Assembly: GCA_964447685.1 (NCBI GenBank)
Contig: CAYUTI010000003.1
Span: 7,026 to 71,025, forward strand
Reading direction: 5' to 3'
Source of the DNA: Candidatus Woesearchaeota archaeon
GTDB lineage: Archaea > Nanobdellota > Nanobdellia > SCGC-AAA011-G17 > CAYUTI01
DNA: 64,000 nt
Part shown: positions 1,838-16,697 of the stretch, one piece after another
How the letters are laid out: every line of letters begins with the position of its first letter
Numbering within the stretch: the first letter of the stretch is position 1
Translations under genes and position numbers: made by a program
Notes under the pieces: generated by a model
Told to the model about the DNA's origin: nothing
The model's input: only the letters and a program-made list of their open reading frames with translations
Database searches by the model: none

Positions 1838-4800
1838 CATCAAAACCTATTTCAAAGGTCTGATTCTTAATCTTTTCTTTAGATTTATGCTTAGAATCTG
1901 TTATTCTGTTGAATGTTAAATCTTTTGCACCTGTTTTCTCTTTAATTTCTTTTGCTAAAGGTTCTAAATCATAACTTGAACTAATAATTAGTTTGATTTT
2001 TTGTGACTTTTGTAAGCCTGCATCTTTTCTTAATGCTTGAATTCTTCTTGTTAATTCTCTAGCATAACCCTCTTGTTCTAATTCTGGAGTTATAGTTGTA
2101 TTAATATACACAGAACCTCCTCTAAAAATTGAAGACTTTAGGTTTTCTGGAAGAGTTTCTTTAACTATCAAGTGAGCTTCTGTTAATTCGAAATTATCTA
2201 TCCTGGTTTTTCCTGTTTCTTTGATTTCTTCTAAGTTTTCTTTTTTAACTTTTTGTAAAATAAGTGGAGAGTCTTTTTTGAAATCTCTACCTATTGCAGC
2301 ATGATTTAAGGATAATTCTACTTTAGCTTCTTTTAGTTCTCTCTTTGTAATAATGTTCTTGATGTTTGTTTGTTGTTTAATTAAAGGCTCTAAAGATTTC
2401 AAAGCTTGTTGAACTTCTTTTTTCTGAGTAAGAATAGTTGCACTAGATAAAGGCCATCTCACATTAATGTTTGCTTGTTCTCTTGCTGCTAATATTGCTT
2501 GCAGAATATCTTGTAAAATTTGCATTTCTGTCTCTAGTTTTTTATTAATTAATTTTTTATCTTCTTTAGGCCAATCTTCTAAATGGATTGATTCTTTTGA
2601 TAATTTGAAATTTTCTTTTAAATCTTGATACAGTGCTTCTGTGATGAATGGGCAGATTGGTGCGAATAGTTTAATTGTTGTTAATAGAGTAGTGTAAATA
2701 GTATCTAAGACAGTTTGTTTTTCATCTTTTGTTCCTAAAGTTAATTTATCTCTGGTTTGTTGAATATAAGTTCTTGATAATTCTAAGAAAAGTTCTTCTA
2801 TTGGAAGTATTGTTTTATCTATATCATAAGATTCATAAAACTTTGTAGCTTCTTGAATTGTTGAGTTCAATTTTGATAAAATATATTTTTCTTCTAAGTC
2901 TTTTAGTTTTGGTGCTTTGATTATTTTAGGTGTAATCTTGTAAGTTTTTGCTGAATCAATTAAAAAGTTTGAAAGGTTATGTAAGATAGTTAAGTTTCTG
3001 AACTTTAATTGAGCTTCATCCCAACTAAAATTAATATCTTCTCCGGCTTTAGTTTGACACATGTAGTATCTTAAAGTATCTGAACCATATTTATCTATTA
3101 TTTCATAGGGAGAGATTACATTTCCTAGAGATTTAGACATCTTTACTCCTTCAACATCTGTAAGCATTCCGTGCATGAAAACATTTTTGAAACAAGGTTT
3201 ATCAAAAGCTAGATAAGAAGATACCATCAATAAATTAAACCAGCCTCTAACTTGTTCTTTTGCTTCTAAAATAAAGTCTGCTGGGAAGTATTTTTTGAAT
3301 AAATCTTGTCTTTGAGGATAATATAAACAATTCCAAGATGCTGTTCCTGCATCAATCCAAACATCTAAAATATCAGGTAATCTTTTCTTTGTTCCTGAAC
3401 ATTTTTCACACTTGAATGTTATTTTATCTATCCAAGGTTTGTGGAGATTTTCTGGAACTTTTCCTGCTAGTTTTTCTAATTCTTCTTTTGAACCTATTAC
3501 AGTAATATCTTTACATGATTCACATTTCCAAATAGGTAAAGGTGTGCCCCAAAATCTCTGTTTGGTAATAGAATTATCTCTTAAATTTTTTAACCATGAA
3601 TCAAATGCATTTTTACCTGCTTCTGGAACCCAATGGATCTTTTCATTTGCTTTAACCATCTTATCCTTCATATCTTCAACTTTGAAGAACCATTGTTTTG
3701 TTGTTCTGAAGATAACGGGTTCATGACATCTCTCACAATGAGGATATTCGTGTTCTACAGGAGTTGTTTCAATTAGAACTTTTGATTTCTTAAGTTCCTC
3801 AATAAAGAAAGCATCGTCTTTTTTTGCTCTTTTTCCAGCAAATTGAGCCATGTTTTCTGGGAAAATTCCTTTTTGTGATAAATTGTTATAAGCAGGAATA
3901 TTATTTCTATGACCCACTTCATAATCTTCTGGTCCACAACCTGGTGCACAATGAACTAATCCGGTTCCTGCAGATGTATCTACATATTCTTCTGAAAGAA
4001 TGACTGTATGAACCTTTGGATGTTTAGCTTTTAATTTTTTATAATCTTCTAAAGGCCAGAAGTGCTCATATTCTAAACCTTCTAAAGTTTCTCCTTTGAA
4101 CTCTTTTGTAATTTTTAAAGTTTTATTTGCTACAGCCTGAACCACAGGTGCTGCTAAAGCTTTTGATAATATCCAAATTTCTCCTTCAACATCTGCTTCA
4201 ACATAATCTAATTCAGGATTTACCATAATTGCTAGATTATAGGGTAATGTCCAAGGGGTAGTTGTCCAAATGATTAGGAATTTATTTTTTGAATCTTTTA
4301 CTTTGAATTTTACAAAAACTGAAGGCTCTTCTACTGTTTTATATTCTTGTTCATGTTTTGCTAAAGCAGTTTCGCAATGTGCACACCAGGATAATGTTCT
4401 TTTTCCTTCGTATAATCTATTTTTTTTATGTGCTTGTTTGATTAACCACCATTCACCTTCGATATAATCATTATCAATTGGATGATAAGCATTTTCGAAA
4501 TCCATCCAGATCCCTAACTTTGTTAAATCTTCATCCATTAGTTTAGCTTTTTCCTTTGAGAATTTTACACATTCTTTTACGAATTTATCTAAACCAAATT
4601 TTTCAATATCTTTTTTGGTCTCTAGTTTAAATTGTGCTTGAACTTTATGGGCTGTTGGTAATCCATGCATATCATAACCTGCTCGGTCCCAAACATTGAA
4701 TTTATTCATTCTCTTATATCTAAGGATTATATCTTTTGCAGAGTTGTTCCAAGCATGACCCATGTGTAACCGTCCTGATGTGTAAGGTGGACCTTGTAAG

Positions 4801-5329: not shown

Positions 5330-5567
5330 TTTAAAGTCTCCTTTCTAGTTTTTTAGTTGCTGAATCTAGAAAAAACAGATCCAGCTTATTGAATAATTAT
5401 AATAATAGCTAAGGAAATTATACTAAAAATTATATTTTTTGTCTTAGCCATAGTAATTTTTTGGATTATTGGTTATTTAAATATTTCGAAAAACTTTATA
5501 TAGGGTAAAATATGGTTAAAAGGGGTGTTTAAAGCACAATTTAAATAAATTATGGAGATTGATAAAT

Positions 5568-10882: not shown

Positions 10883-11145
10883 TTTCTTATATTTAAAAGT
10901 AGCATAAATGCTTGCAATTGCGACTTAAAAAAGATTGCTAAAAGTATAAACCTTTGTGAATCTGGAGAAGAAAACTATTGTCATGATGATTGTGGAAAAG
11001 AAAATAGTATTATAGATAACAACCAAGAAGAAGGTTTTTTTCAGAAGATTATTGGTTTTTTTAGAAGCTTATTTAGTTAAAATCTTAGATTCTTAAAAAA
11101 AAAAAACATTCTTTTATGACTTCTGAACATTTGGATTTAGAGAAG

Positions 11146-11260
11146 TTTTTGCGTAGCAAAAAATTTGGGAGAGCGAAGTGCAACGAGGTTTCCTGTTAAG
11201 TGAGCCGAGCGAGAGCGCAGCGTGGTCGAGGAGCGAAGCGAAGAAAGTCGAGTTTTGCCC
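11146..11260. repeat. GC-rich mosaic repeat element, copy A: hairpin ttttgcGTAgcaaaa, module Z, then the 13-bp left inverted repeat
   Basis: Shares the hairpin tttttgcgtagcaaaaaa with 11739-11757. gaagtgcaacgagg...ggtcgaggagcgaagcgaagaaagtcgag is shared with 13581-13623. Ends with tcgagttttgccc (11248-11260). Confidence 0.7.
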
Positions 11261-11295
11261 GATACATTAATAAACTTCTAAATAATTTTAATGTT

Positions 11296-11601
11296 ATGGA
11301 CATTAAAGAAATAGAAAAACGAATTATGGATTTTGCTAAGAAAAGAGCATCAGCAAAAAATTTTGATTTGACTCCAGAATTATCTTATATTCATTTAACT
11401 GAAGAATTGGGCGAAGTAGCAAGACAATTATCTAATAAAAAAATTCGCCCAGATTTATTTGATAAAGATAATCTGAAGGAAGAAATTGTTGATGTAATTC
11501 TGGAGGCAATTATTTTGGCGAATATTTGTGAAACAGATTTAGATAAAGAAATTAGCCAAAAGATTGATGCTCTTTTCAAAAGACATAATTTTTCTGAATA
11601 A
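11296..11601 (+). CDS. MazG-like nucleoside triphosphate pyrophosphohydrolase (all-alpha NTP-PPase)
   Basis: LTEELGEVARQ...EEIVDVILEAIILA EExxE/EExxD motifs typical of the MazG/HisE fold, ~101 aa. The track's GTG start at 11200 would read through the GC-rich repeat (Arg-rich artefact). Confidence 0.6.
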   Translation: MDIKEIEKRIMDFAKKRASAKNFDLTPELSYIHLTEELGEVARQLSNKKIRPDLFDKDNLKEEIVDVILEAIILANICETDLDKEISQKIDALFKRHNFSE

Positions 11602-11603
11602 GA

Positions 11604-11964
11604 GGGCAAAACTCGATTGCATTTAACATCGGAATTTAACGAAGTCGCCGAAGGCGATTTGGGGATTTTTCGCAGGAAAATCCCAGATAATCGCTGTTAT
11701 ACGCGTCTGCTAAGACCGAGCCATAGTCTGCAAGACGGTTTTTTGCGTAGCAAAAAAATGGCGAAGAGTTAAATTTAATTTTCATATCAATTCTGCGAAG
11801 CAGACTATATTTTAAGGGAATTCTCTCTCAAGCTCGAAGAGCTATAGATTAAATACATAAAGGGCAATTTCTTTTCTGGCACGAAGTGCTTTTCAATTAA
11901 ATCTTAAAGGGGTCGCCGTCCTTTTTTGCTTCTTTTTTGGAAAAAAGAAGATTATGGGGTCGCC
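11604..11964. repeat. GC-rich mosaic repeat element, copy B (hairpin-rich; modules X, Y, W)
   Basis: Starts with gggcaaaactcga, the reverse complement of 11248-11260. Contains stem-loops gtcgcc-gaa-ggcgat, gggatttt-cgcagg-aaaatccc, ttttgc-gta-gcaaaa, agctc-gaag-agct, gcac-gaa-gtgc, a 22-bp perfect palindrome at 11929-11950, and ggggtcgcc twice. Confidence 0.7.
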
Positions 11965-12027
11965 TAATTTCAAGTTAATTTAGAGTTATAGGTATTTTTA
12001 TATATTTAAAGATTTTAGATTAATATT

Positions 12028-12390
12028 ATGAGAAAGTTATATATTGTTTTGATCATTATTGGAATTTTGATAGTTGGATATACAATAAGCCTTAATTATT
12101 TTAATGCCAAATTCGATAAAGAATGGTTATCTTGTGAAACAGATGATGATTGTATTCTTGTTCCAGATTATCGAATTTGTTCTTGTGGAGATATGGCATT
12201 AAATAAGAATTTTGAAGATGATTATATGTCAATGAGATTTAAAAATAATATATATAATAAGATTTCTCTTGCCAAAATGCAAGTAATTTGTGAGGTTTGT
12301 GCAACTGTTGATCCTATAAATGGAGAAGTTGTTGGTAAATGTGGTAATTCCTTAGGAAGGAATATATGCGTGATTGGTTCTGGTTCTTAA
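12028..12390 (+). CDS. small Cys-rich secreted/membrane-anchored protein
   Basis: N-terminal hydrophobic anchor followed by a Cys-rich domain with 11 Cys (CETDDDC...CSCGD...CEVC). Confidence 0.5.
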   Translation: MRKLYIVLIIIGILIVGYTISLNYFNAKFDKEWLSCETDDDCILVPDYRICSCGDMALNKNFEDDYMSMRFKNNIYNKISLAKMQVICEVCATVDPINGEVVGKCGNSLGRNICVIGSGS

Positions 12391-12461
12391 TTTATGATCA
12401 TATTTCAAGCCAAATTGAAATTATAGAAAGACTTATATAATATCTAATTATTTATTCTGAT

Positions 12462-13100
12462 ATGCATAAAAAAATATTAATTAGTGCCTTAGTATTTATA
12501 ATGATTCTAACTAGTTTAGTTACTGCTAGTTTGTATGCTGAAAAAGTTCCAGATCCAAGCAGATTTACATCTATACAACCAAGATGGTCAGCACAATTAG
12601 AATTATCTGATGGACAAACAATAAAAGTATCTCTAATAACTTTTAAATGGTTGAGTTATCAAAATAAAACAGAAGTAACTCATATGTTCTACCTAAATGA
12701 CGGAATGGATGAATATTTAGCTGAAAAAGGTGCAGAATTTTTTGTTGAAAAATATGAATTTACATGTCAAGAGGGTTATGAAAATTGTACAAAAAAATGT
12801 GATTCTGGTGATGAATCTTGTATAGATGATTGTGTAGAAGAATTTAATTGCGGAAGTGTTTCTACTTGTAGTATATTTGCTCCAGATGACACATGCTCTG
12901 TAGAAAGAATAGAACAGAATTTTGGTAAGCACACCTTATCTTTAAATTTTGATCCTAATTCTGGCAAACCAATAATGGGACCCATAGTTTCTGATAGTGG
13001 AGTAATTATAAAATCTGCTAGCAATTATGATGGAAAACCTATTGAATTAGTAGCAGGACAAAATGGTTTTTTAAGTAAGGGGGTATTCTCATTAGAATGA
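12462..13100 (+). CDS. secreted Cys-rich protein
   Basis: Signal peptide (ILTSLVTASLYA) and multiple Cys pairs (CTKKCDSGDESCIDDCVEEFNC). Confidence 0.5.
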   Translation: MHKKILISALVFIMILTSLVTASLYAEKVPDPSRFTSIQPRWSAQLELSDGQTIKVSLITFKWLSYQNKTEVTHMFYLNDGMDEYLAEKGAEFFVEKYEFTCQEGYENCTKKCDSGDESCIDDCVEEFNCGSVSTCSIFAPDDTCSVERIEQNFGKHTLSLNFDPNSGKPIMGPIVSDSGVIIKSASNYDGKPIELVAGQNGFLSKGVFSLE

Positions 13101-13273
13101 AATTGAGATATCTGATACCTATTTTATTATTAATCTTAGTTTTAATTGTAGGTTGTGTGCAGAAATTAACTCCTCCTGAAGAGGAAGTGCCAGAAGAAAC
13201 ACTTGGAATTTCTACTCAAGAAGAACTATTTGAAGCTGTTAGAACTGCTGTGAATGAACATCTTAAAGAATAA
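13097..13273 (+). CDS. small putative lipoprotein (58 aa)
   Basis: ATG overlaps the upstream TGA (ATGA coupling). MKLRYLIPILLLILVLIVGC has a lipobox-like signal. Absent from the ORF track (<60 aa). Confidence 0.35.
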   Translation: MKLRYLIPILLLILVLIVGCVQKLTPPEEEVPEETLGISTQEELFEAVRTAVNEHLKE

Positions 13274-13632
13274 GCGACCCCAAATAAATCTCAAAACTGA
13301 AAGTTTTGACTATCTGTTGCGGAGCAACCAAGGCGACCCCCTTTTATTTTTTTGGAAATTGCCCTTTTTAGTTTTTAGAGAGAATTCCCGTTTTCTAGTC
13401 GTGAAAATTAAATTTAATTGCGTATAACATCGCGATTAAGAGAAGTCCGAAGCCCTCGAAAAAATTTCCCTCGTGAAACAGAGTTGGAAATTTTTTCAGA
13501 GATGGCGAGGATTTGGGAAAATTCCTGCAAGGGATTTTCCTCTTAATCGCTGTTAAATCCCCCGACGAACGAAGTGAGGAGAGTGCAACGGGGTCGAGGA
13601 GCGAAGCGACGAAGAAGTCACAGAACGGCGCG
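13274..13632. repeat. GC-rich mosaic repeat element, copy C (modules W in reverse orientation, X, Z), ending in the 14-bp inverted-repeat arm
   Basis: gcgacccc/ggcgacccc mirror ggggtcgcc at 11909/11956. Hairpins tcaaaact-gaa-agttttga and gttgc-gga-gcaac. agagagaattccc is the reverse complement of 11816-11829. 13504-13560 aligns with 11653-11705; 13581-13623 aligns with 11175-11252. Confidence 0.7.
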
Positions 13633-13662
13633 TTATTAGGGTGGGAATAAAAGAAAGCTTTT

Positions 13663-14391
13663 TTATCCTAAATCAAATTGTCCCCAATAATTAACTGAAA
13701 AATCTTTATCGGCAGAATCTAATTTATTGTAATCTGAATCTAATAAATCAACCTTTAAAGTATAAGTTCCGTCTTTCTCAAACATACAGCCCATTATTGA
13801 GATTTCTCCAGTTTGTTTCTGACCTGCTGAAATTGTGCTAATTTCATCAAACATAGGGCTTCCAGAACAAACTTCGTTATCGTTGCTATCATAAACATAC
13901 AAATCAAATTTTGGAGAAATCGAAACATCTCCTGTATTAGTAACGGTTACACGAGTGGGATAAAGATTTGCTACTTGAATTTGAACTCTATCAATAGATA
14001 AAGTAGCACTTTTTACTTTTTGTTTTGGAGGTTCTTGGGGCTGTGTTTGAGTATTTGAAGGAGTAGAAGTTTCAGAAGGTTGATTTACATTTTCTGTTGG
14101 TTGGATTTTTACGTCATCATTAAAGATATTTGACGAAGGCAAACTTACAGCATAAATTACAAACAGAATGATGACTAGTGTTATTTTTAATCCTCTTGAT
14201 AATTCAAAATTAAACTTTTCTTTTACAAACTTATTAACAGGTGGAAGTAAAACCAAAGACGCAAGTATAAGAGAACCACCTGCAACTATTCCACCACTAA
14301 AAAGAAAAGTTAATCCGCTTAATCCAAATAACACTCCGAAAATCCAACTTAAAACAAGACCTAATGTGATTTTTTTTGTTTCTTTTGACAT
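13663..14391 (-). CDS. membrane-anchored surface protein (N-terminal TM, Thr/Pro/Gln-rich linker, beta-rich C-terminal domain)
   Basis: 242 aa with TM segments at the N-terminus and a PSETSTPSNTQTQPQEPP linker. Own BRE/TATA at ~14413-14428 on the minus strand. Confidence 0.5.
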   Translation of the reverse strand: MSKETKKITLGLVLSWIFGVLFGLSGLTFLFSGGIVAGGSLILASLVLLPPVNKFVKEKFNFELSRGLKITLVIILFVIYAVSLPSSNIFNDDVKIQPTENVNQPSETSTPSNTQTQPQEPPKQKVKSATLSIDRVQIQVANLYPTRVTVTNTGDVSISPKFDLYVYDSNDNEVCSGSPMFDEISTISAGQKQTGEISIMGCMFEKDGTYTLKVDLLDSDYNKLDSADKDFSVNYWGQFDLG

Positions 14392-14434
14392 TATAAATAA
14401 ATTAGAATAAACTGATATAAAAAGTTTTCTAAAG

Positions 14435-14463
14435 AGGGTGGGAAAGTTAGCGCCGTTCTGTGA
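14435..14463. repeat. 10-bp direct repeat agggtgggaa plus the 14-bp right inverted-repeat arm gcgccgttctgtga
   Basis: Perfect reverse complement of 13618-13631. agggtgggaa is also at 13638-13647. Confidence 0.7.
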
Positions 14464-14565
14464 TTGGATTTAACACCTATTATACGAATAAAAAGTTCGC
14501 TTTTTATCCCTATTTTGGAGTTATTACGAACTTTTTTATACTTTGGAGTTATTTTTAAAATTATG

Positions 14566-15342
14566 GAGAAGGAAAAATATCTTCAAAAACTAAATGAAGA
14601 ACTTAAATTAAGGGGTTATTCTGAAAAAACTAAAAAAAGTTATAGTTATATTATTACCAGATATCTGGAAAAAGAAATAGATCCTAGAGAATTTTTATTA
14701 AAAAATAGTTATAAAAGTAAATCTACAATGCGTAGCAATTATTTTGCGCTAAAGTTTTTTTATGAAAATGTCTTAAAGCAAAAATTTAAAGAAGAGATAC
14801 CTCTAGCAAAAAATGAATCAAAAATACCTGTTGTATTAAGTAAAGAAGAAGTCCAAAAACTCTTTGATGTTACATTAAACTTAAAACATAAATTTGCCTT
14901 AATGCTATTATATTATACAGGGATAAGATTGAATGAGCTCATTAATTTAAAATGGGAAGACCTAGACTTTGATAGAAAGGTTATTCATCTTAAAACAACA
15001 AAAGGAAATCATCAAAGAATTATTTTTTTACATAATAAATTGATACAAATCATAACCTTCTTAGGGTTGGAAAAGAAGGGGTTTATCCTAATTTCAAATA
15101 GAAATAAAAAATATAATCAAAGATCCATACAACAAATTATCAAGAATGCTGTAAAAAAAACAGGTATAAACAAAAAAGTTACTCCTCATAGTTTAAGACA
15201 TTCATTTGCTACCCATCTATTGGATTCTGGAGCAGATATACGACATATTCAAAGATTATTAGGTCATAAGGATTTGAAAACTACTCAGATTTATACCCAT
15301 GTTACCAATAAAGAAATAAATAAACTTTCTGAATTATTGTAG
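14566..15342 (+). CDS. XerC/XerD-like tyrosine recombinase (archaeal XerA-like integrase)
   Basis: R (GIRLNEL), HxxR (HSLRHSFATH) and catalytic Y (TQIYTHV) of the tyrosine recombinase fold. ~259 aa from ATG 14566; the track's TTG start at 14464 is probably non-coding. Confidence 0.85.
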   Translation, partial: EKEKYLQKLNEELKLRGYSEKTKKSYSYIITRYLEKEIDPREFLLKNSYKSKSTMRSNYFALKFFYENVLKQKFKEEIPLAKNESKIPVVLSKEEVQKLFDVTLNLKHKFALMLLYYTGIRLNELINLKWEDLDFDRKVIHLKTTKGNHQRIIFLHNKLIQIITFLGLEKKGFILISNRNKKYNQRSIQQIIKNAVKKTGINKKVTPHSLRHSFATHLLDSGADIRHIQRLLGHKDLKTTQIYTHVTNKEINKLSELL

Positions 15343-15383: not shown

Positions 15384-16697
15384 ATGGCTTATGATGTTAT
15401 TGTCGGTAGAAATGAGTCCGACAGAAAAAGATTTGGTGAAGAGGGAACTGTTCTTTTAGGCAAGCAATATGTAAAGATGGGTCCAGTTACTAGTTTGAGT
15501 AATAATGTTTTTTTGGATGTTAATCGGCCTCATGTTATATTATTGGCTGGTAAAAGGGGTTCTGGAAAATCTTATACTCTTTCAGTTATAGCAGAAGGAA
15601 TTTCTAATTTACCAAAATATATCTCCAAAAATATTTCTGTTTTAATATTTGACACGATGGGTGTTTTCTGGACAATGAAATATAAAAATCTGATGGATGA
15701 AGATCTTTTAATGGAATGGGGAATGAGTCCTGAAGAATTAAATATTTTGTGGTGGGTCCCAAAAGGTTTCTACAAAAAGTATGAAAGAGAAAATTTACCA
15801 GTTGATAAACCCTTTACAATTAAACCTTCTGAATTAAATTCAGGAGATTGGTGTGAAGTTTTTGGTGTTAGTATGTTTAATGAAGAAGGAATTTTGATTG
15901 AAAAAGCAGTTTCAGCTGCTTCAAAAAAAGGGAATTATTCTATTTTAGATGTTGTTAAAGAGATTCAAAAAGATAAAAAAAGTAGTCAGAGGGTTAGAGA
16001 TGGTTTAGAAAATAGATTTTTAGCTGCTCATGGATGGGGGTTGTTTAGTAAGGAAGGAACTGCAATCAAAGACTTATTAGTTCCTGGAAGGACTTCAGTT
16101 CTTGATGTTAGTGTTTACACTCATGTTGCTGGAAGTTGGGCTATTAAAAATTTAGTTATTGGATTAGTTTCTAGAAAATTATTATTAGAAAGGATGATTA
16201 ATAGAAAAGTTGAAGAATTAGCTAATATTAAATATGGTACTACTTATTTTACTCGAGAAGAAGAAAAAGAAACCATGCCTCTAGTATGGTTGATGTTAGA
16301 TGAAGCTCATGAGGCTTTACCTAAAGAGGGAAAAACCCCTGCTACTGATGCTTTAGTTCAATTACTAAGAGAAGGAAGACAACCTGGTGTTACTTTAGTT
16401 TTAGCAACTCAGCAACCAGGAGAGATTCATAGAGATGTTATTACTCAGTCTGATATTGTAATTAGTCATAGGTTAACTGCTAAAAGAGATATTGAAGCTT
16501 TGAATGCAATGATGCAGAGTTATTTACAAAGCGATATGGTAGGGTATTTGAATAATTTACCTAGACTTTCTGGTTCGGGTATTGTTTTAGATGATAATTC
16601 TGAAAGAATTTATCCAATTAGAGTTAGACCAAAATTAAGTTGGCATGGTGGTGCTGCACCTAGTGCTTTAAAAATAAGAAAAGAAATTATGTTTTAA
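15384..16697 (+). CDS. HerA/FtsK/VirB4-superfamily P-loop ATPase (DUF87-like)
   Basis: N-terminal barrel-like segment (DVIVGR...GTVLLGK), Walker A GKRGSGKSYT, Walker B LMLDEAHE, ATQQPGEI sensor region. Confidence 0.7.
   Translation: MAYDVIVGRNESDRKRFGEEGTVLLGKQYVKMGPVTSLSNNVFLDVNRPHVILLAGKRGSGKSYTLSVIAEGISNLPKYISKNISVLIFDTMGVFWTMKYKNLMDEDLLMEWGMSPEELNILWWVPKGFYKKYERENLPVDKPFTIKPSELNSGDWCEVFGVSMFNEEGILIEKAVSAASKKGNYSILDVVKEIQKDKKSSQRVRDGLENRFLAAHGWGLFSKEGTAIKDLLVPGRTSVLDVSVYTHVAGSWAIKNLVIGLVSRKLLLERMINRKVEELANIKYGTTYFTREEEKETMPLVWLMLDEAHEALPKEGKTPATDALVQLLREGRQPGVTLVLATQQPGEIHRDVITQSDIVISHRLTAKRDIEALNAMMQSYLQSDMVGYLNNLPRLSGSGIVLDDNSERIYPIRVRPKLSWHGGAAPSALKIRKEIMF

What the first reader, a model, noticed from the sequence alone, without database searches (positions are those of the whole stretch)
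11248..11616. 13-bp perfect inverted repeat bracketing a stand-alone MazG-like NTP pyrophosphohydrolase gene
tcgagttttgccc (11248-11260) and gggcaaaactcga (11604-11616) are exact reverse complements. They sit 36 nt upstream of the MazG ATG and 3 nt after its stop, isolating a 101-aa MazG/HisE-fold gene as a discrete unit. MazG-like NTPases are frequent cargo of mobile elements and phage counter-defence. Here it is the first cassette next to the GC-rich repeat.
Basis: seen in the sequence. Interest (0 to 1): 0.55.

Follow-up and report, generated by a model that had tools for sequence, protein, structure and literature searches.

The report
Hairpin-closed gene modules beside archaeal recombinase
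The 13-base inverted repeat around the small MazG gene is real and not chance: it is one of the "closing stems" of a mobile gene module in an integron-like cassette array that sits next to a dedicated Xer-type recombinase and recurs in more than a hundred genomes of tiny DPANN archaea, a system I could not find described.

Summary
Observation confirmed. TCGAGTTTTGCCC (11248-11260) and its exact reverse complement (11604-11616) bracket a 101-aa MazG gene. G+C-rich 13-mers of this kind are expected 0.015 times per window; two occur. A 16-nt A+T-rich pair brackets a third block.

The repeat is not a stand-alone switch. It belongs to a 3.4-kb array (11133-14490) of three gene modules separated by ~150-200-nt hairpin elements. 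The array ends in an archaeal dif-like 11-6-11 site about 70 nt upstream of a diverged XerA paralogue; the canonical XerA lies elsewhere in the window.

The element's 21-nt core occurs in at least 119 stretches of genome assemblies, mostly DPANN. There, 40 of 131 elements show the same rule: a variable exact repeat, usually 13-14 nt, abutting conserved junctions (..AGAG|T-X ... X'-A|TTG..). A second, outer 10-bp terminal repeat (TGTTAnnnnn/nnnnnTAACA) also pairs within modules.

Compensated stems, a fixed 2-nt bulge and 60-fold excess of C-GNA-G triloops point to folding as single-stranded DNA, as in integron attC or CTX-phage attP.

The recombinase lacks the integron-integrase domain and gene orientation is random, so this is not a classical integron. 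Five MazG module copies share one orientation, giving no support for inversion. The role of the arms is inferred, not shown.

The parts
11133..11198 (+). Left-end, degenerate hairpin element (a). It has a decayed 5' site (GGATTTAGAGAAG), small hairpins, and a 3' site ..CCTGTTA (TGTTA = 11194-11198). It marks the boundary of the array towards the housekeeping genes (LemA, M48 peptidase, RFC).
   Evidence: compared with the family consensus
11199..11247 (+). 'mod2' leader of the MazG module. It has two small hairpins around GCGCAGCG and ends ..GAAGAAAG. The same 18-mer GGTCGAGGAGCGAAGCGA recurs at 13592.
   Evidence: conserved in the L005/L131/L134/L157 copies
11248..11260 (+). X1, left arm of the reported inverted repeat (TCGAGTTTTGCCC).
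11261..11295 (+). Native upstream (promoter-like) region carried with the gene. It is homologous to the upstream region of non-module MazG genes (CGATAAATTAATAAAC..).
11296..11601 (+). MazG-type NTP pyrophosphohydrolase, 101 aa. The EELGE and EEIVD motifs can be read in the sequence.
11604..11616 (+). X1', right arm (GGGCAAAACTCGA).
11616..11643 (+). dif-like site at the start of hairpin element (b): ATTGCATTTAA | CATCGG | AATTTAACGAA.
11644..11768 (+). Rest of hairpin element (b). It holds hairpins hp1/hp2, the 3' site ..CGCTGTTATACGC (TGTTA = 11695-11699), and the mod2 leader of the next module, ending ..GAAGAG.
11769..11784 (+). X3, left arm (TTAAATTTAATTTTCA) of the second module, which holds three small ORFs (12028-13273). 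Further nested repeat layers lie at 11816-11965.
13402..13417 (+). X3', right arm of the second module. Nested partner layers lie at 13331-13389.
13417..13617 (+). Hairpin element (c). It runs ATTGCGTATAA|CATCGC|GATTAAGAGAA ... CTCTTAATCGC-TGTTAAATCC, followed by mod2.
13618..13631 (+). X2, left arm (TCACAGAACGGCGC) of the third module.
13663..14391 (-). 242-aa predicted membrane protein with no family match. It is the cargo of the third module and lies on the opposite strand.
14450..14463 (+). X2', right arm of the third module.
14463..14490 (+). Terminal dif-like 11-6-11 site: ATTGGATTTAA | CACCTA | TTATACGAATA. No full element follows it. It plays the role of an attI or dif site.
14563..15342 (+). 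Array-linked Xer-type tyrosine recombinase, 259 aa from the ATG, a diverged XerA paralogue.
38521..39342 (-). Canonical XerA (not part of the array), listed to show that the array-linked enzyme is an extra paralogue.

Best explanation
The 13-bp repeat is the inner closing stem of a mobile gene module in a Xer-type cassette array. The array consists of co-oriented hairpin elements of about 150-220 nt. Each element starts with an archaeal dif-like site (ATTGnnnnTAA|CATCGG|AATTTAACGAA). Further on, it carries the inverted partner of that site (CGTTAAATTCC-TGTTAnnnnn), which lacks 2 nt, so that on one DNA strand the two fold into an attC-like or CTX-attP-like hairpin with a fixed 2-nt bulge. A gene module lies between two such elements. 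Its layout is TGTTAnnnnn, then mod2 (two mini-hairpins), then ..AGAG|T-X, then the gene with its own promoter, then X'-A|TT-GnnnnTAACA. So the module ends carry two nested inverted repeats: a 10-bp outer one (the variable part of the recombinase-binding arm) and the 13-14-nt X/X' pair. Shown here: the architecture, its recurrence in many DPANN genomes, the covariation, the link to a XerA paralogue with a terminal dif-like site, and homology breakpoints of shared modules that fall at the two ends of the site's central region. Inferred: when the DNA is single-stranded, X pairs with X' and the outer repeat pairs as well. Either this draws the two ends of the module together, or, in an excised circle, it closes the base of the hairpin site. 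That would give the recombinase a complete, stable folded substrate for excision, integration and reshuffling of modules. The arm sequence is free to vary because only pairing matters.
For: Non-random repeats: 0.015 G+C-rich 13-mer repeats are expected per window and 2 are observed. A third, 16-nt pair brackets the middle module.
Same junctions in all three modules: GGTCGAGGAGCGAAGCGA..AAG|X and X'|TTGSATTTAACA.
Family-wide rule: the 21-nt core occurs in at least 119 genome stretches, mostly DPANN MAGs. Forty of 131 elements have an exact repeat of at least 11 nt (mode 13) abutting the junctions, against 4 of 131 in a shifted control. In 11 of 26 strictly defined modules at least 11 of 13 positions pair, against 0.2 expected.
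Outer repeat: the 5 variable nt pair within the module in 18 of 28 cases (5/5) and in 6 more (4/5), while pairing with the element's own 3' site is at chance.
Hairpin covariation: 100 hairpins carry 18 different fully compensated 9-bp boxes, with a bulge of exactly 2 nt (100 cases, against 0-6 for other bulge sizes).
DNA-type folding: C-GNA-G triloops number 100 against 1.6 in shuffles, while GNRA tetraloops are at chance. Single-stranded DNA folding z-scores are -4.2 and -5.4.
Recombinase link: 16 of ~119 loci of 8 kb or less encode a homologue. In 13 of them the elements lie upstream on the same strand, and a core site ATTGnnnnTAACA plus a short hairpin lies within about 170 nt upstream of the recombinase gene.
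dif likeness: the P. abyssi dif site is ATTGGATATAA TCGGCC TTATATCTAAA (PMC2958812).
Breakpoints: L043 and L058 are about 90% identical from ..CCTGTTA to ..TAACAT and unrelated outside. MazG homology between the window and L005 starts at TTCCTGTTA.
Arm conservation: the arms are unchanged in the window, L131 and L157 while the genes differ by 3-9%.
Against: No experiment or read-level data show excision, circles or single-stranded intermediates.
The arms are separated by 0.3-4 kb in the integrated state, so pairing there needs long single-stranded stretches.
One MazG copy (L134) has decayed arms (10 of 13 pairs) without compensation, so selection on pairing is not absolute.
The same or nearly the same arm pair flanks unrelated contents in different genomes (L061/L117 and L023/L076). 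That fits a reusable 'socket' into which DNA is inserted at least as well as a stem that travels with the gene.
Minimal elements without the conserved box exist (L043, L157, L131).
The 3' site has only 4 nt where the 5' site has 6, so it may not work as a double-stranded site. The two kinds of breakpoint are documented in only two or three pairs.
Confidence: 0.62

Rival explanations
1. Scar or socket. The arms are the stem of a pre-existing hairpin at the end of each array element, and genes were inserted into its loop. On this view the repeat records how the cassette was made and has no present role in recombination.
For: Homology between the module copy and native chromosomal copies of MazG begins at the inner edge of X1 (-35 from the ATG) and ends at the stop codon. 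Identical or near-identical arm pairs enclose unrelated contents (L061/L117; L023/L076). Short ORF-less modules of 72-216 nt exist. Nested extra repeat layers look like repeated insertions. The L134 arms decayed without compensation.
Against: Arm length is sharply peaked at 13-14 nt and the arms are exact in most modules. The arms are unchanged in three diverged MazG copies. The outer repeat covaries in the same way and lies in the recombinase-binding arm. No truly empty hairpin with a short loop was found among 131 elements; the smallest span is 72 nt.
Confidence: 0.2
2. Invertible gene switch. Recombination between the arms flips the gene relative to outside signals.
For: Gene orientation relative to the elements is random across modules: 16 plus and 13 minus among single-ORF modules. 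Flipping between perfect arms would leave no scar. Inversions between inverted Xer sites are documented in Acinetobacter dif modules (PMC13141974).
Against: Five independent copies of the MazG module all have the same orientation. MazG has its own upstream region inside the arms. The arms are variable, so they are not a recombinase recognition sequence, and 13 bp is too short for efficient homologous recombination (established knowledge). The Logan assembly of the same genome shows the same orientation.
Confidence: 0.05
3. Classical integron. The elements are attC sites, the recombinase is an IntI, and the repeat is the usual complementarity between a cassette's first bases and its inverse core site.
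For: The recombinase lies next to an array of short cassettes. The sites have ..AAC / GTT.. ends, two paired boxes and an asymmetric spacer. The outer repeat pairs within a cassette, as in integron cassettes. Integrons have been reported in Archaea, including Nanoarchaeota (PMC9668308). The best solved-structure matches of the MazG protein are 2q73/2q5z/2q9l, which I recall as the integron-cassette iMazG of Vibrio.
Against: The recombinase lacks the IntI-specific domain. Against VchIntIA the alignment splits (query 5-161 to chain 4-174, query 181-250 to chain 239-308), while it is continuous against XerA. It scores 193 bits against the integron-integrase model's cut-off of 265. Cassette genes are not co-oriented. 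Breakpoints occur at both ends of the site's spacer. The elements carry an extra 45-75-nt module and a 13-nt stem that are unknown in attC. The archaeal attCs published in Data S9 are unrelated ~70-nt G+C-rich sites.
Confidence: 0.06
4. Ordinary expression signals or chance. The arms are parts of a promoter and a terminator hairpin, or they pair in the mRNA to stabilise it.
For: Many arms are A+T-rich on the outside and could resemble TATA boxes or oligo-T terminators.
Against: Chance is excluded. X1 lies upstream of the gene's native promoter region, so it would not be in the gene's own transcript. Genes lie on either strand. The loops are DNA-type triloops, not RNA tetraloops. Rfam finds no RNA family here.
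Confidence: 0.03

Closest known systems
Integrons (IntI + attI + attC cassette arrays), including the archaeal integrons of Ghaly et al. 2022 (PMC9668308)
   Same: A tyrosine recombinase of the Xer lineage sits next to an array of small, mostly single-gene cassettes. The cassettes are separated by imperfect hairpin sites with ..AAC/GTT.. ends, two paired boxes and an asymmetric unpaired spacer. A simpler terminal site lies next to the recombinase gene. The first bases of a cassette are complementary to the start of the site at its other end. The sites appear built to fold as single-stranded DNA.
   Different: The recombinase is a XerA paralogue without the IntI-specific domain. Genes lie in either orientation and can carry their own promoter. 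Each cassette has an extra leader (mod2) and a 13-14-nt variable closing stem. Breakpoints fall on both sides of the spacer. The site sequence is unrelated to published archaeal attCs.
dif modules of Acinetobacter plasmids (pdif sites, XerC/XerD; PMC13141974)
   Same: Gene modules are bounded by inversely oriented 11-6-11 Xer sites, and two module classes alternate. Modules are found in different contexts with breakpoints in the sites. ORF-less modules exist. Modules occur in either orientation.
   Different: Here one of the two alternating classes is always a tiny hairpin-only segment, so each pair of inverted sites forms one foldable element. The inverted partner site lacks 2 nt of the spacer. 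The location is chromosomal and archaeal. A dedicated recombinase paralogue is encoded beside the array, in addition to canonical XerA. dif modules are not reported to have a variable inner repeat.
CTX-phage attP(+) and other elements that exploit Xer (IMEX). This comparison rests on my own knowledge (Val et al. 2005).
   Same: Two inverted dif-like sequences fold on single-stranded DNA into a hairpin that mimics a dif site with a bulged central region and is used by a Xer recombinase. Successive integrations build arrays next to a dif site.
   Different: There are no phage genes, the units are single-gene modules, the host is archaeal, and extra closing stems are present.
Archaeal XerA/dif chromosome-dimer resolution (Cortez et al. 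2010, PMC2958812)
   Same: The left arm ATTGnnnnTAA and the 11-6-11 layout of the element's 5' site and of the terminal site match the P. abyssi dif site ATTGGATATAA TCGGCC TTATATCTAAA.
   Different: A chromosome has a single dif site, and in Thermococcales it does not lie next to xerA. Here there are many sites in an array next to a second, diverged xerA-like gene.
Integron-cassette MazG (iMazG, Vibrio; PDB 2Q5Z/2Q73/2Q9L). The identity of these entries is recalled from memory (Robinson et al. 2007).
   Same: It is a small stand-alone all-alpha MazG-type NTP pyrophosphohydrolase carried as a cassette. These entries are the best solved-structure matches (E = 2e-4).
   Different: Sequence similarity is only distant. 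The DPANN gene also exists as an ordinary chromosomal gene in related genomes.

Membership tests
Integron | Integrase with the IntI-specific additional domain around patch III | tested here: not met
   Against VchIntIA (2A3V) the alignment splits and 64 residues of IntI face 19 of the query, while the alignment against XerA (5HXY) is continuous. TIGR02249 scores 193 bits against a cut-off of 265; the best model is XerA_Arch at 206.
Integron | attC sites: an imperfect hairpin on one strand with R''(..AAC)/R'(GTT..), L boxes, an unpaired spacer and extrahelical bases | tested here: inconclusive
   The architecture is analogous: TAAC-A[TC]GG-box ... box-CC-TGTTA, 18 compensated box variants and a fixed 2-nt bulge. 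The IntegronFinder attC model was not available. The elements are longer and carry extra modules. They are unrelated to published archaeal attCs.
Integron | At least two sites less than 4 kb apart (CALIN criterion), with or without an adjacent integrase and attI | tested here: met
   Four sites lie within 3.4 kb, with the recombinase about 70 nt from the terminal site. This holds only if the elements are accepted as attC-like.
Integron | Cassette ORFs generally in one orientation and promoter-less | tested here: not met
   16 plus against 13 minus. MazG carries its native upstream region.
dif modules (Xer-dependent modules) | 28-bp sites made of two 11-bp arms and a 6-bp spacer, resembling the host dif site | tested here: met
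   The 5' site of each element and the terminal sites fit ATTGnnnnTAA-N6-arm, and the arm matches the P. abyssi dif site.
dif modules (Xer-dependent modules) | Modules bounded by inversely oriented complete sites, with two module classes alternating | tested here: inconclusive
   An inverted partner is present at every element, but its spacer has 4 rather than 6 nt. Module breakpoints at both sites were seen in L043/L058.
dif modules (Xer-dependent modules) | Recombination carried out by the host's chromosome-dimer resolvase | not testable with these tools
   The genome has a canonical XerA (264 bits, above the cut-off of 220) and a diverged array-linked paralogue (206 bits). Which enzyme acts is unknown.
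Invertible DNA switch (inverton) | Both orientations of the bracketed segment present in populations | tested here: not met
   Five MazG module copies from different samples and the Logan assembly of the same genome all have one orientation. Read-level data were not available.
Invertible DNA switch (inverton) | Conserved inverted repeats recognised by an invertase | tested here: not met
   Arm sequences differ between modules.
MazG / all-alpha NTP pyrophosphohydrolase | Match to the MazG domain model, plus the EExxE and ExxD metal-binding motifs | tested here: met
   PF03819 scores 32.1 bits against a cut-off of 22. EELGE and EEIVD can be read in the translation. Solved-structure matches are 2q73, 2gta, 2q5z and 5ie9. 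No structure prediction was run.
Rfam RNA families | Score at or above a family's gathering threshold | tested here: not met
   Only one tRNA was found in the whole window.

The most novel reading that the evidence does not exclude
DPANN archaea carry a previously undescribed, lineage-wide gene-capture platform that is an independent analogue of the bacterial integron. It has a dedicated XerA paralogue and a terminal dif-like site. Its foldable single-strand DNA sites are built from two inverted dif halves. Its gene modules have ends that zip together through nested inverted repeats of variable sequence, of which the MazG repeat is one. These repeats may also serve as reusable 'sockets' through which ordinary chromosomal genes, complete with their promoters, are turned into mobile cassettes.
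Probability: 0.45. Interest if true: 0.9.

Novelty: new variant of a known kind. Interest (0 to 1): 0.8.

Why it matters
If the model holds, integron-style gene shuffling arose at least twice from Xer recombinases. That would give a natural intermediate between chromosome-dimer resolution (dif), plasmid dif modules, single-stranded phage integration and integrons.

It would also identify a main route of gene exchange in DPANN archaea, whose tiny genomes depend on acquired functions.

How integron cassettes are born is a long-standing open question. Here the MazG gene can be seen both in its native chromosomal place and as a cassette, and the junctions fall exactly at the inner edges of the repeat arms. 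That makes the capture step directly testable.

Practically, the 21-nt core and the arm rule allow these arrays to be annotated in metagenomes, where they currently break assemblies.

Tried and rejected
Rfam on the whole window: only one tRNA was found, so no known RNA family explains the elements.

Archaeal bulge-helix-bulge processing stems and mRNA end-pairing: rejected. The stems are perfect and have no bulges. X1 lies upstream of the gene's promoter. Genes lie on both strands. The loops are DNA-type.

Viral-contig scan with GGTCGAGGAGCGAAGCGA: three hits, none carrying the element.

Only L157 was a true MazG module.

HerA/FtsK-like ATPase downstream of the recombinase as a conserved partner: it was not found in any other locus.

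Derivation of the right arm from the native 3' flank of MazG: 8-9 of 13 matches at inconsistent offsets, judged to be chance.

Compensatory change between L023 and L076: the arms differ by one compensated pair, but the modules are not homologous, so this is not a clean covariation event.

Literature: no paper in the library contains the core sequence. Keyword searches on DPANN, XerA, cassettes and dif-like sites found no description of the system.

A first, loose definition of module ends gave an inflated denominator and was replaced by a strict one.
Full report
1. THE OBSERVATION

TCGAGTTTTGCCC (11248-11260) and GGGCAAAACTCGA (11604-11616) are exact reverse complements. They bracket ORF 11296-11601.

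That ORF encodes 101 aa and matches Pfam MazG at 32.1 bits against a cut-off of 22. It carries the EELGE and EEIVD motifs. Its best matches among solved structures are small MazG-type proteins.

In this 30% G+C window, A+T-rich exact 13-mer inverted repeats within 1 kb are at chance level: 5 loci observed against 4.6 expected. Repeats with at least 7 G/C are expected 0.015 times per window, and two are present.

The second is TCACAGAACGGCGC at 13618-13631 / 14450-14463. It brackets the next single gene, a 242-aa ORF on the minus strand. A 16-nt exact pair, 11769-11784 / 13402-13417, brackets the three small ORFs in between.

So three consecutive gene blocks are each bracketed by a perfect repeat of different sequence.

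2. THE SURROUNDINGS

All three left arms directly follow a conserved G+C-rich leader ending ..GAAGARAG ('mod2'; the 18-mer GGTCGAGGAGCGAAGCGA occurs only at 11224 and 13592). All three right arms are directly followed by TTGSrTwTAACAyC.

Between the gene blocks lie 150-200-nt non-coding elements full of small hairpins. They share TAATCGCTGTTA, and as single-stranded DNA they fold far better than shuffled controls (z = -4.2 and -5.4).

The array runs from a degenerate element at 11133 to a last site at 14463-14490. That site lies about 70 nt upstream of a tyrosine recombinase gene (14563-15342).

The flanks are ordinary archaeal genes: IleRS, RFC subunits, M48 peptidase and LemA. The array is therefore chromosomal.

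3. THE SAME SYSTEM ELSEWHERE

The 21-nt core TAACAYCGGRATTTAACGAAG from 11624 was scanned against one genome per species. Most are in Woese-, Pace-, Nano- and Aenigmatarchaeota MAGs, though a sizeable minority of bins are labelled Methanosarcinales. Many hits lie at contig ends, which indicates a repeat that breaks assemblies.

The Logan contig of the window's own genome also ends 60 nt after MazG.

The aligned copies give this consensus: ATTG-nnnn-TAACA-TC-GGAATTTAACG-AAG-[hairpin]-TTTGGG-[hairpin]-CGTTAAATTCC-TGTTA-nnnnn-[hairpin]-GCGCAGCG or GTGCAACG-[hairpin]-..AGAG.

In 23 of 24 loci with two or more copies, all copies lie on one strand.

4. THE REPEAT IS A RULE

For each element I took the bases just before (A)TTG and searched upstream for their reverse complement.

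- Forty of 131 elements had an exact repeat of at least 11 nt: 13 nt in 16 cases and 14 nt in 8. The same test shifted by 40 nt gave 4 of 131.
- The partner arm follows ..AGAG of the upstream element (logo AgAG|T).
- With strictly defined module ends, 9 of 26 modules pair at 13 of 13 positions and 11 of 26 at 11 or more, against 0.2 expected. Four more have shorter arms. Most of the rest span several kb and probably contain undetected degenerate elements.
- The bracketed spans run from 72 to 4331 nt and usually hold one ORF.

A second, outer repeat also exists. The five variable bases after TGTTA at the left end of a module pair with the five before TAACA at its right end in 18 of 28 modules (5/5) and in 6 more (4/5). 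Pairing with the element's own 3' site is at chance. In the window this outer repeat is 10/10 for the second and third modules and 8/10 for MazG.

5. THE HAIRPIN AND SINGLE-STRANDED DNA

One hundred elements have TAACA-NN-(9-nt box) ... (reverse complement of the box)-TGTT.

- They carry 18 different, fully compensated boxes.
- The bulge is exactly 2 nt in 100 cases, against 0-6 for bulges of 0, 1, 3 or 4 nt.
- The small hairpins are closed by C-GNA-G triloops 100 times, against 1.6 in shuffled sequence. GNRA tetraloops are at chance (6 against 4.8).

From my own knowledge of nucleic-acid thermodynamics, d(C-GNA-G) mini-hairpins are exceptionally stable in DNA, whereas stable RNA hairpins favour tetraloops. 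I therefore infer that the elements are selected to fold as single-stranded DNA.

6. THE RECOMBINASE AND THE SITES

The array-linked protein scores best on the archaeal XerA model: 206 bits, just under the cut-off of 220. On the integron-integrase model it scores 193 bits against a cut-off of 265.

It aligns continuously with T. acidophilum XerA. Against V. cholerae IntI the alignment splits so that 64 IntI residues face 19 of the query. The IntI-specific domain is therefore absent.

The window also encodes a canonical XerA at 38524-39342, which scores 264 bits and is 38% identical to the array-linked protein. The array-linked enzyme is thus an extra, diverged paralogue.

Homologues occur in 16 of ~119 loci of 8 kb or less. 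In 13 of them the elements lie upstream on the same strand, and a core site ATTGnnnnTAACA followed by a short hairpin lies within about 170 nt upstream of the recombinase gene. The three exceptions (L050, L058, L082) are closer to canonical XerA.

The P. abyssi dif site is ATTGGATATAA-TCGGCC-TTATATCTAAA (PMC2958812). Three sites here fit its 11-6-11 layout and its left arm:

- the element's 5' end, ATTGnnnnTAA-CATCGG-AATTTAACGAA;
- the window's terminal site, ATTGGATTTAA-CACCTA-TTATACGAATA;
- the terminal sites of other loci, for example ATTGCAATTAA-CAACTA-TTAAGCGAGAT.

The 3' part of each element is the inverted copy of the 5' site minus two spacer bases. This is what produces the fixed bulge on folding.

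7. WHAT MOVES

L043 and L058 share one module at about 90% identity. The similarity starts at ..CCTGTTA of the upstream element and ends at ..ATTGCATTTAACAT of the downstream one. The hairpin interiors on both sides are unrelated, and L043 even has a minimal TAACATCGGGCCCTGTTA.

The MazG homology between the window and L005 also starts at TTCCTGTTA. L049 and L054 share an element plus the downstream module, with the breakpoint in the 5' site.

The breakpoints therefore fall at the two edges of the site's central region, which is where Xer-type enzymes cut. The number of informative pairs is small.

8. THE MAZG MODULE

Four other samples carry the gene with the same leader and the same left arm.

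- L131 and L157 also have the exact right arm.
- L134 has decayed arms (10 of 13 pairs).
- In L005 the 3' end of the gene and the right arm were replaced by the middle of another element, giving a chimeric ORF.

All five copies have the same orientation.

Other DPANN genomes (L006-L010, L132, L135) carry the gene at 82-89% identity, tightly packed among housekeeping genes and without arms or elements. The native upstream region CGATAAATTAATAAAC.. is retained in the module, and homology begins at the inner edge of X1.

The cassette was therefore made from an ordinary chromosomal gene together with its promoter region.

9. MECHANISM

Shown:

- a conserved array architecture;
- covarying nested repeats at module ends;
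- DNA-type hairpins with a fixed bulge;
- dif-like sites;
- linkage to a XerA paralogue;
- breakpoints in the sites.

Inferred: on single-stranded DNA the outer repeat and X/X' pair with each other. In the integrated array this loops out the gene and joins the flanking half-sites. In an excised circle (gene module plus hairpin) it forms the base of the hairpin site. Either way the recombinase meets a complete, stable folded dif mimic, as IntI does with attC and XerCD with CTX attP(+).

Because only pairing matters, arm sequences are free to differ.

An alternative that I cannot exclude is that the arms are the stem of a 'socket' hairpin into whose loop genes were inserted. Two observations fit this. 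The same arm pair surrounds unrelated contents in L061/L117 and L023/L076. Several modules, including the window's second one, have further nested repeat layers with C-GAA-G mini-hairpins in the left spacers.

10. COMPARISON AND NOVELTY

The system works like an integron, but it fails the defining tests for one. It has no IntI domain, its genes lie in both orientations (16 against 13), its breakpoints fall on both sides of the spacer, and it has extra leader and stem modules.

The archaeal attCs published by Ghaly et al. are unrelated ~70-nt G+C-rich sites.

It also resembles Acinetobacter dif modules, which have alternating inverted Xer sites, ORF-less modules and shuffling. It differs from them in being chromosomal and archaeal, in pairing its sites into foldable elements, and in having a dedicated recombinase.

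No paper in the searchable library contains the core sequence or describes such arrays. The library is incomplete, so prior description cannot be excluded.

I rate the system a new variant of a known kind, namely Xer-family cassette platforms. The variable closing stems are its most unusual feature.

11. CAVEATS

- Everything rests on sequence comparison of metagenome assemblies.
- Loci are at most 8 kb long.
- Element detection used one subfamily's core, so frequencies are lower bounds and denominators are rough.
- No read-level or experimental evidence for recombination, single-stranded intermediates or inversion was available.

Noticed in passing
window 38521-39342 (-): A second Xer-type recombinase scores above the curated cut-off of the archaeal XerA model (264 bits against 220). 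It is only 38% identical to the array-linked enzyme, so the genome keeps a housekeeping XerA plus a diverged paralogue.
   Followed up: yes
window 15384-16697 (+): A HerA/FtsK-like P-loop ATPase lies directly downstream of the array-linked recombinase. In bacteria FtsK activates XerCD. No homologue was found in the other element-bearing loci, so the neighbourhood may be coincidental.
   Followed up: partly
window 11816-11965 and 13331-13389: Inside the 16-nt arms of the three-gene module lie three more collinear repeat layers: GGGAATTCTCTC, AAAGGGCAATTTC and GGGGTCGCC. C-GAA-G mini-hairpins occupy the left-hand spacers, and only short spacers separate the layers on the right. Together they form a 'zipper' of about 50 bp. 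Similar second layers occur in L023 and L076.
   Followed up: partly
window 13640-13648 and 14436-14444: GGGTGGGAA occurs as a direct repeat just inside both arms of the 242-aa ORF module. Similar GGGTGGG or GGGCGGG motifs lie next to arms in L071 and L043. No explanation.
   Followed up: no
L005 5283-6100: The MazG gene is fused after ..gatgctcttttc to the middle of a hairpin element, which replaces its last nine codons and the right arm. It is followed by two tandem ~390-nt G+C-rich ORF-less modules, each with its own 9-10-nt arms (TTCTGATTTC / GAAATCAGAA).
   Followed up: partly
L043 ~2240-2260; L157 2982-3010 and 3438-3470; L131 ~826-850: Minimal elements exist in which the two half-sites are separated by only a few bases (for example TAACATCGGGCCCTGTTA and TAACATTCGCGCGCTGTTA). 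They lack the conserved GGAATTTAACG box, which shows that the box is dispensable for persistence.
   Followed up: no
L061 / L117 and L023 / L076: Identical (TAATTTCAGGGGC) or nearly identical (TTGAGAAAAAGGC against ..GAC, with the matching change in the partner arm) arm pairs enclose unrelated contents in different genomes. The arms may be reusable rather than tied to one gene.
   Followed up: partly
L007-L009 4035-4919 compared with L006: In some populations a DDE transposase (IS) sits immediately upstream of the native, non-module MazG gene. In L006 the same site is empty.
   Followed up: no
L131 1081-3810: The MazG module there lies next to a restriction-modification cluster (Vsr-like endonuclease, R.HinP1I-like protein, DNA methylase). 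This may be relevant to the idea that such arrays collect defence-related genes.
   Followed up: no
genome loci, e.g. L037, L049, L072, L087, L091: A few contigs carrying the element are binned as Patescibacteria, Saccharibacteria, Ignavibacterium or simply 'bacterium', and many as Methanosarcinales. These labels could reflect mis-binning or transfer beyond DPANN.
   Followed up: no
window 4626-4639 / 5532-5545 and 41553-41567 / 41883-41897: Two other exact 14-15-nt inverted repeats are present, but they are A+T-rich and fall within the number expected by chance.
   Followed up: yes
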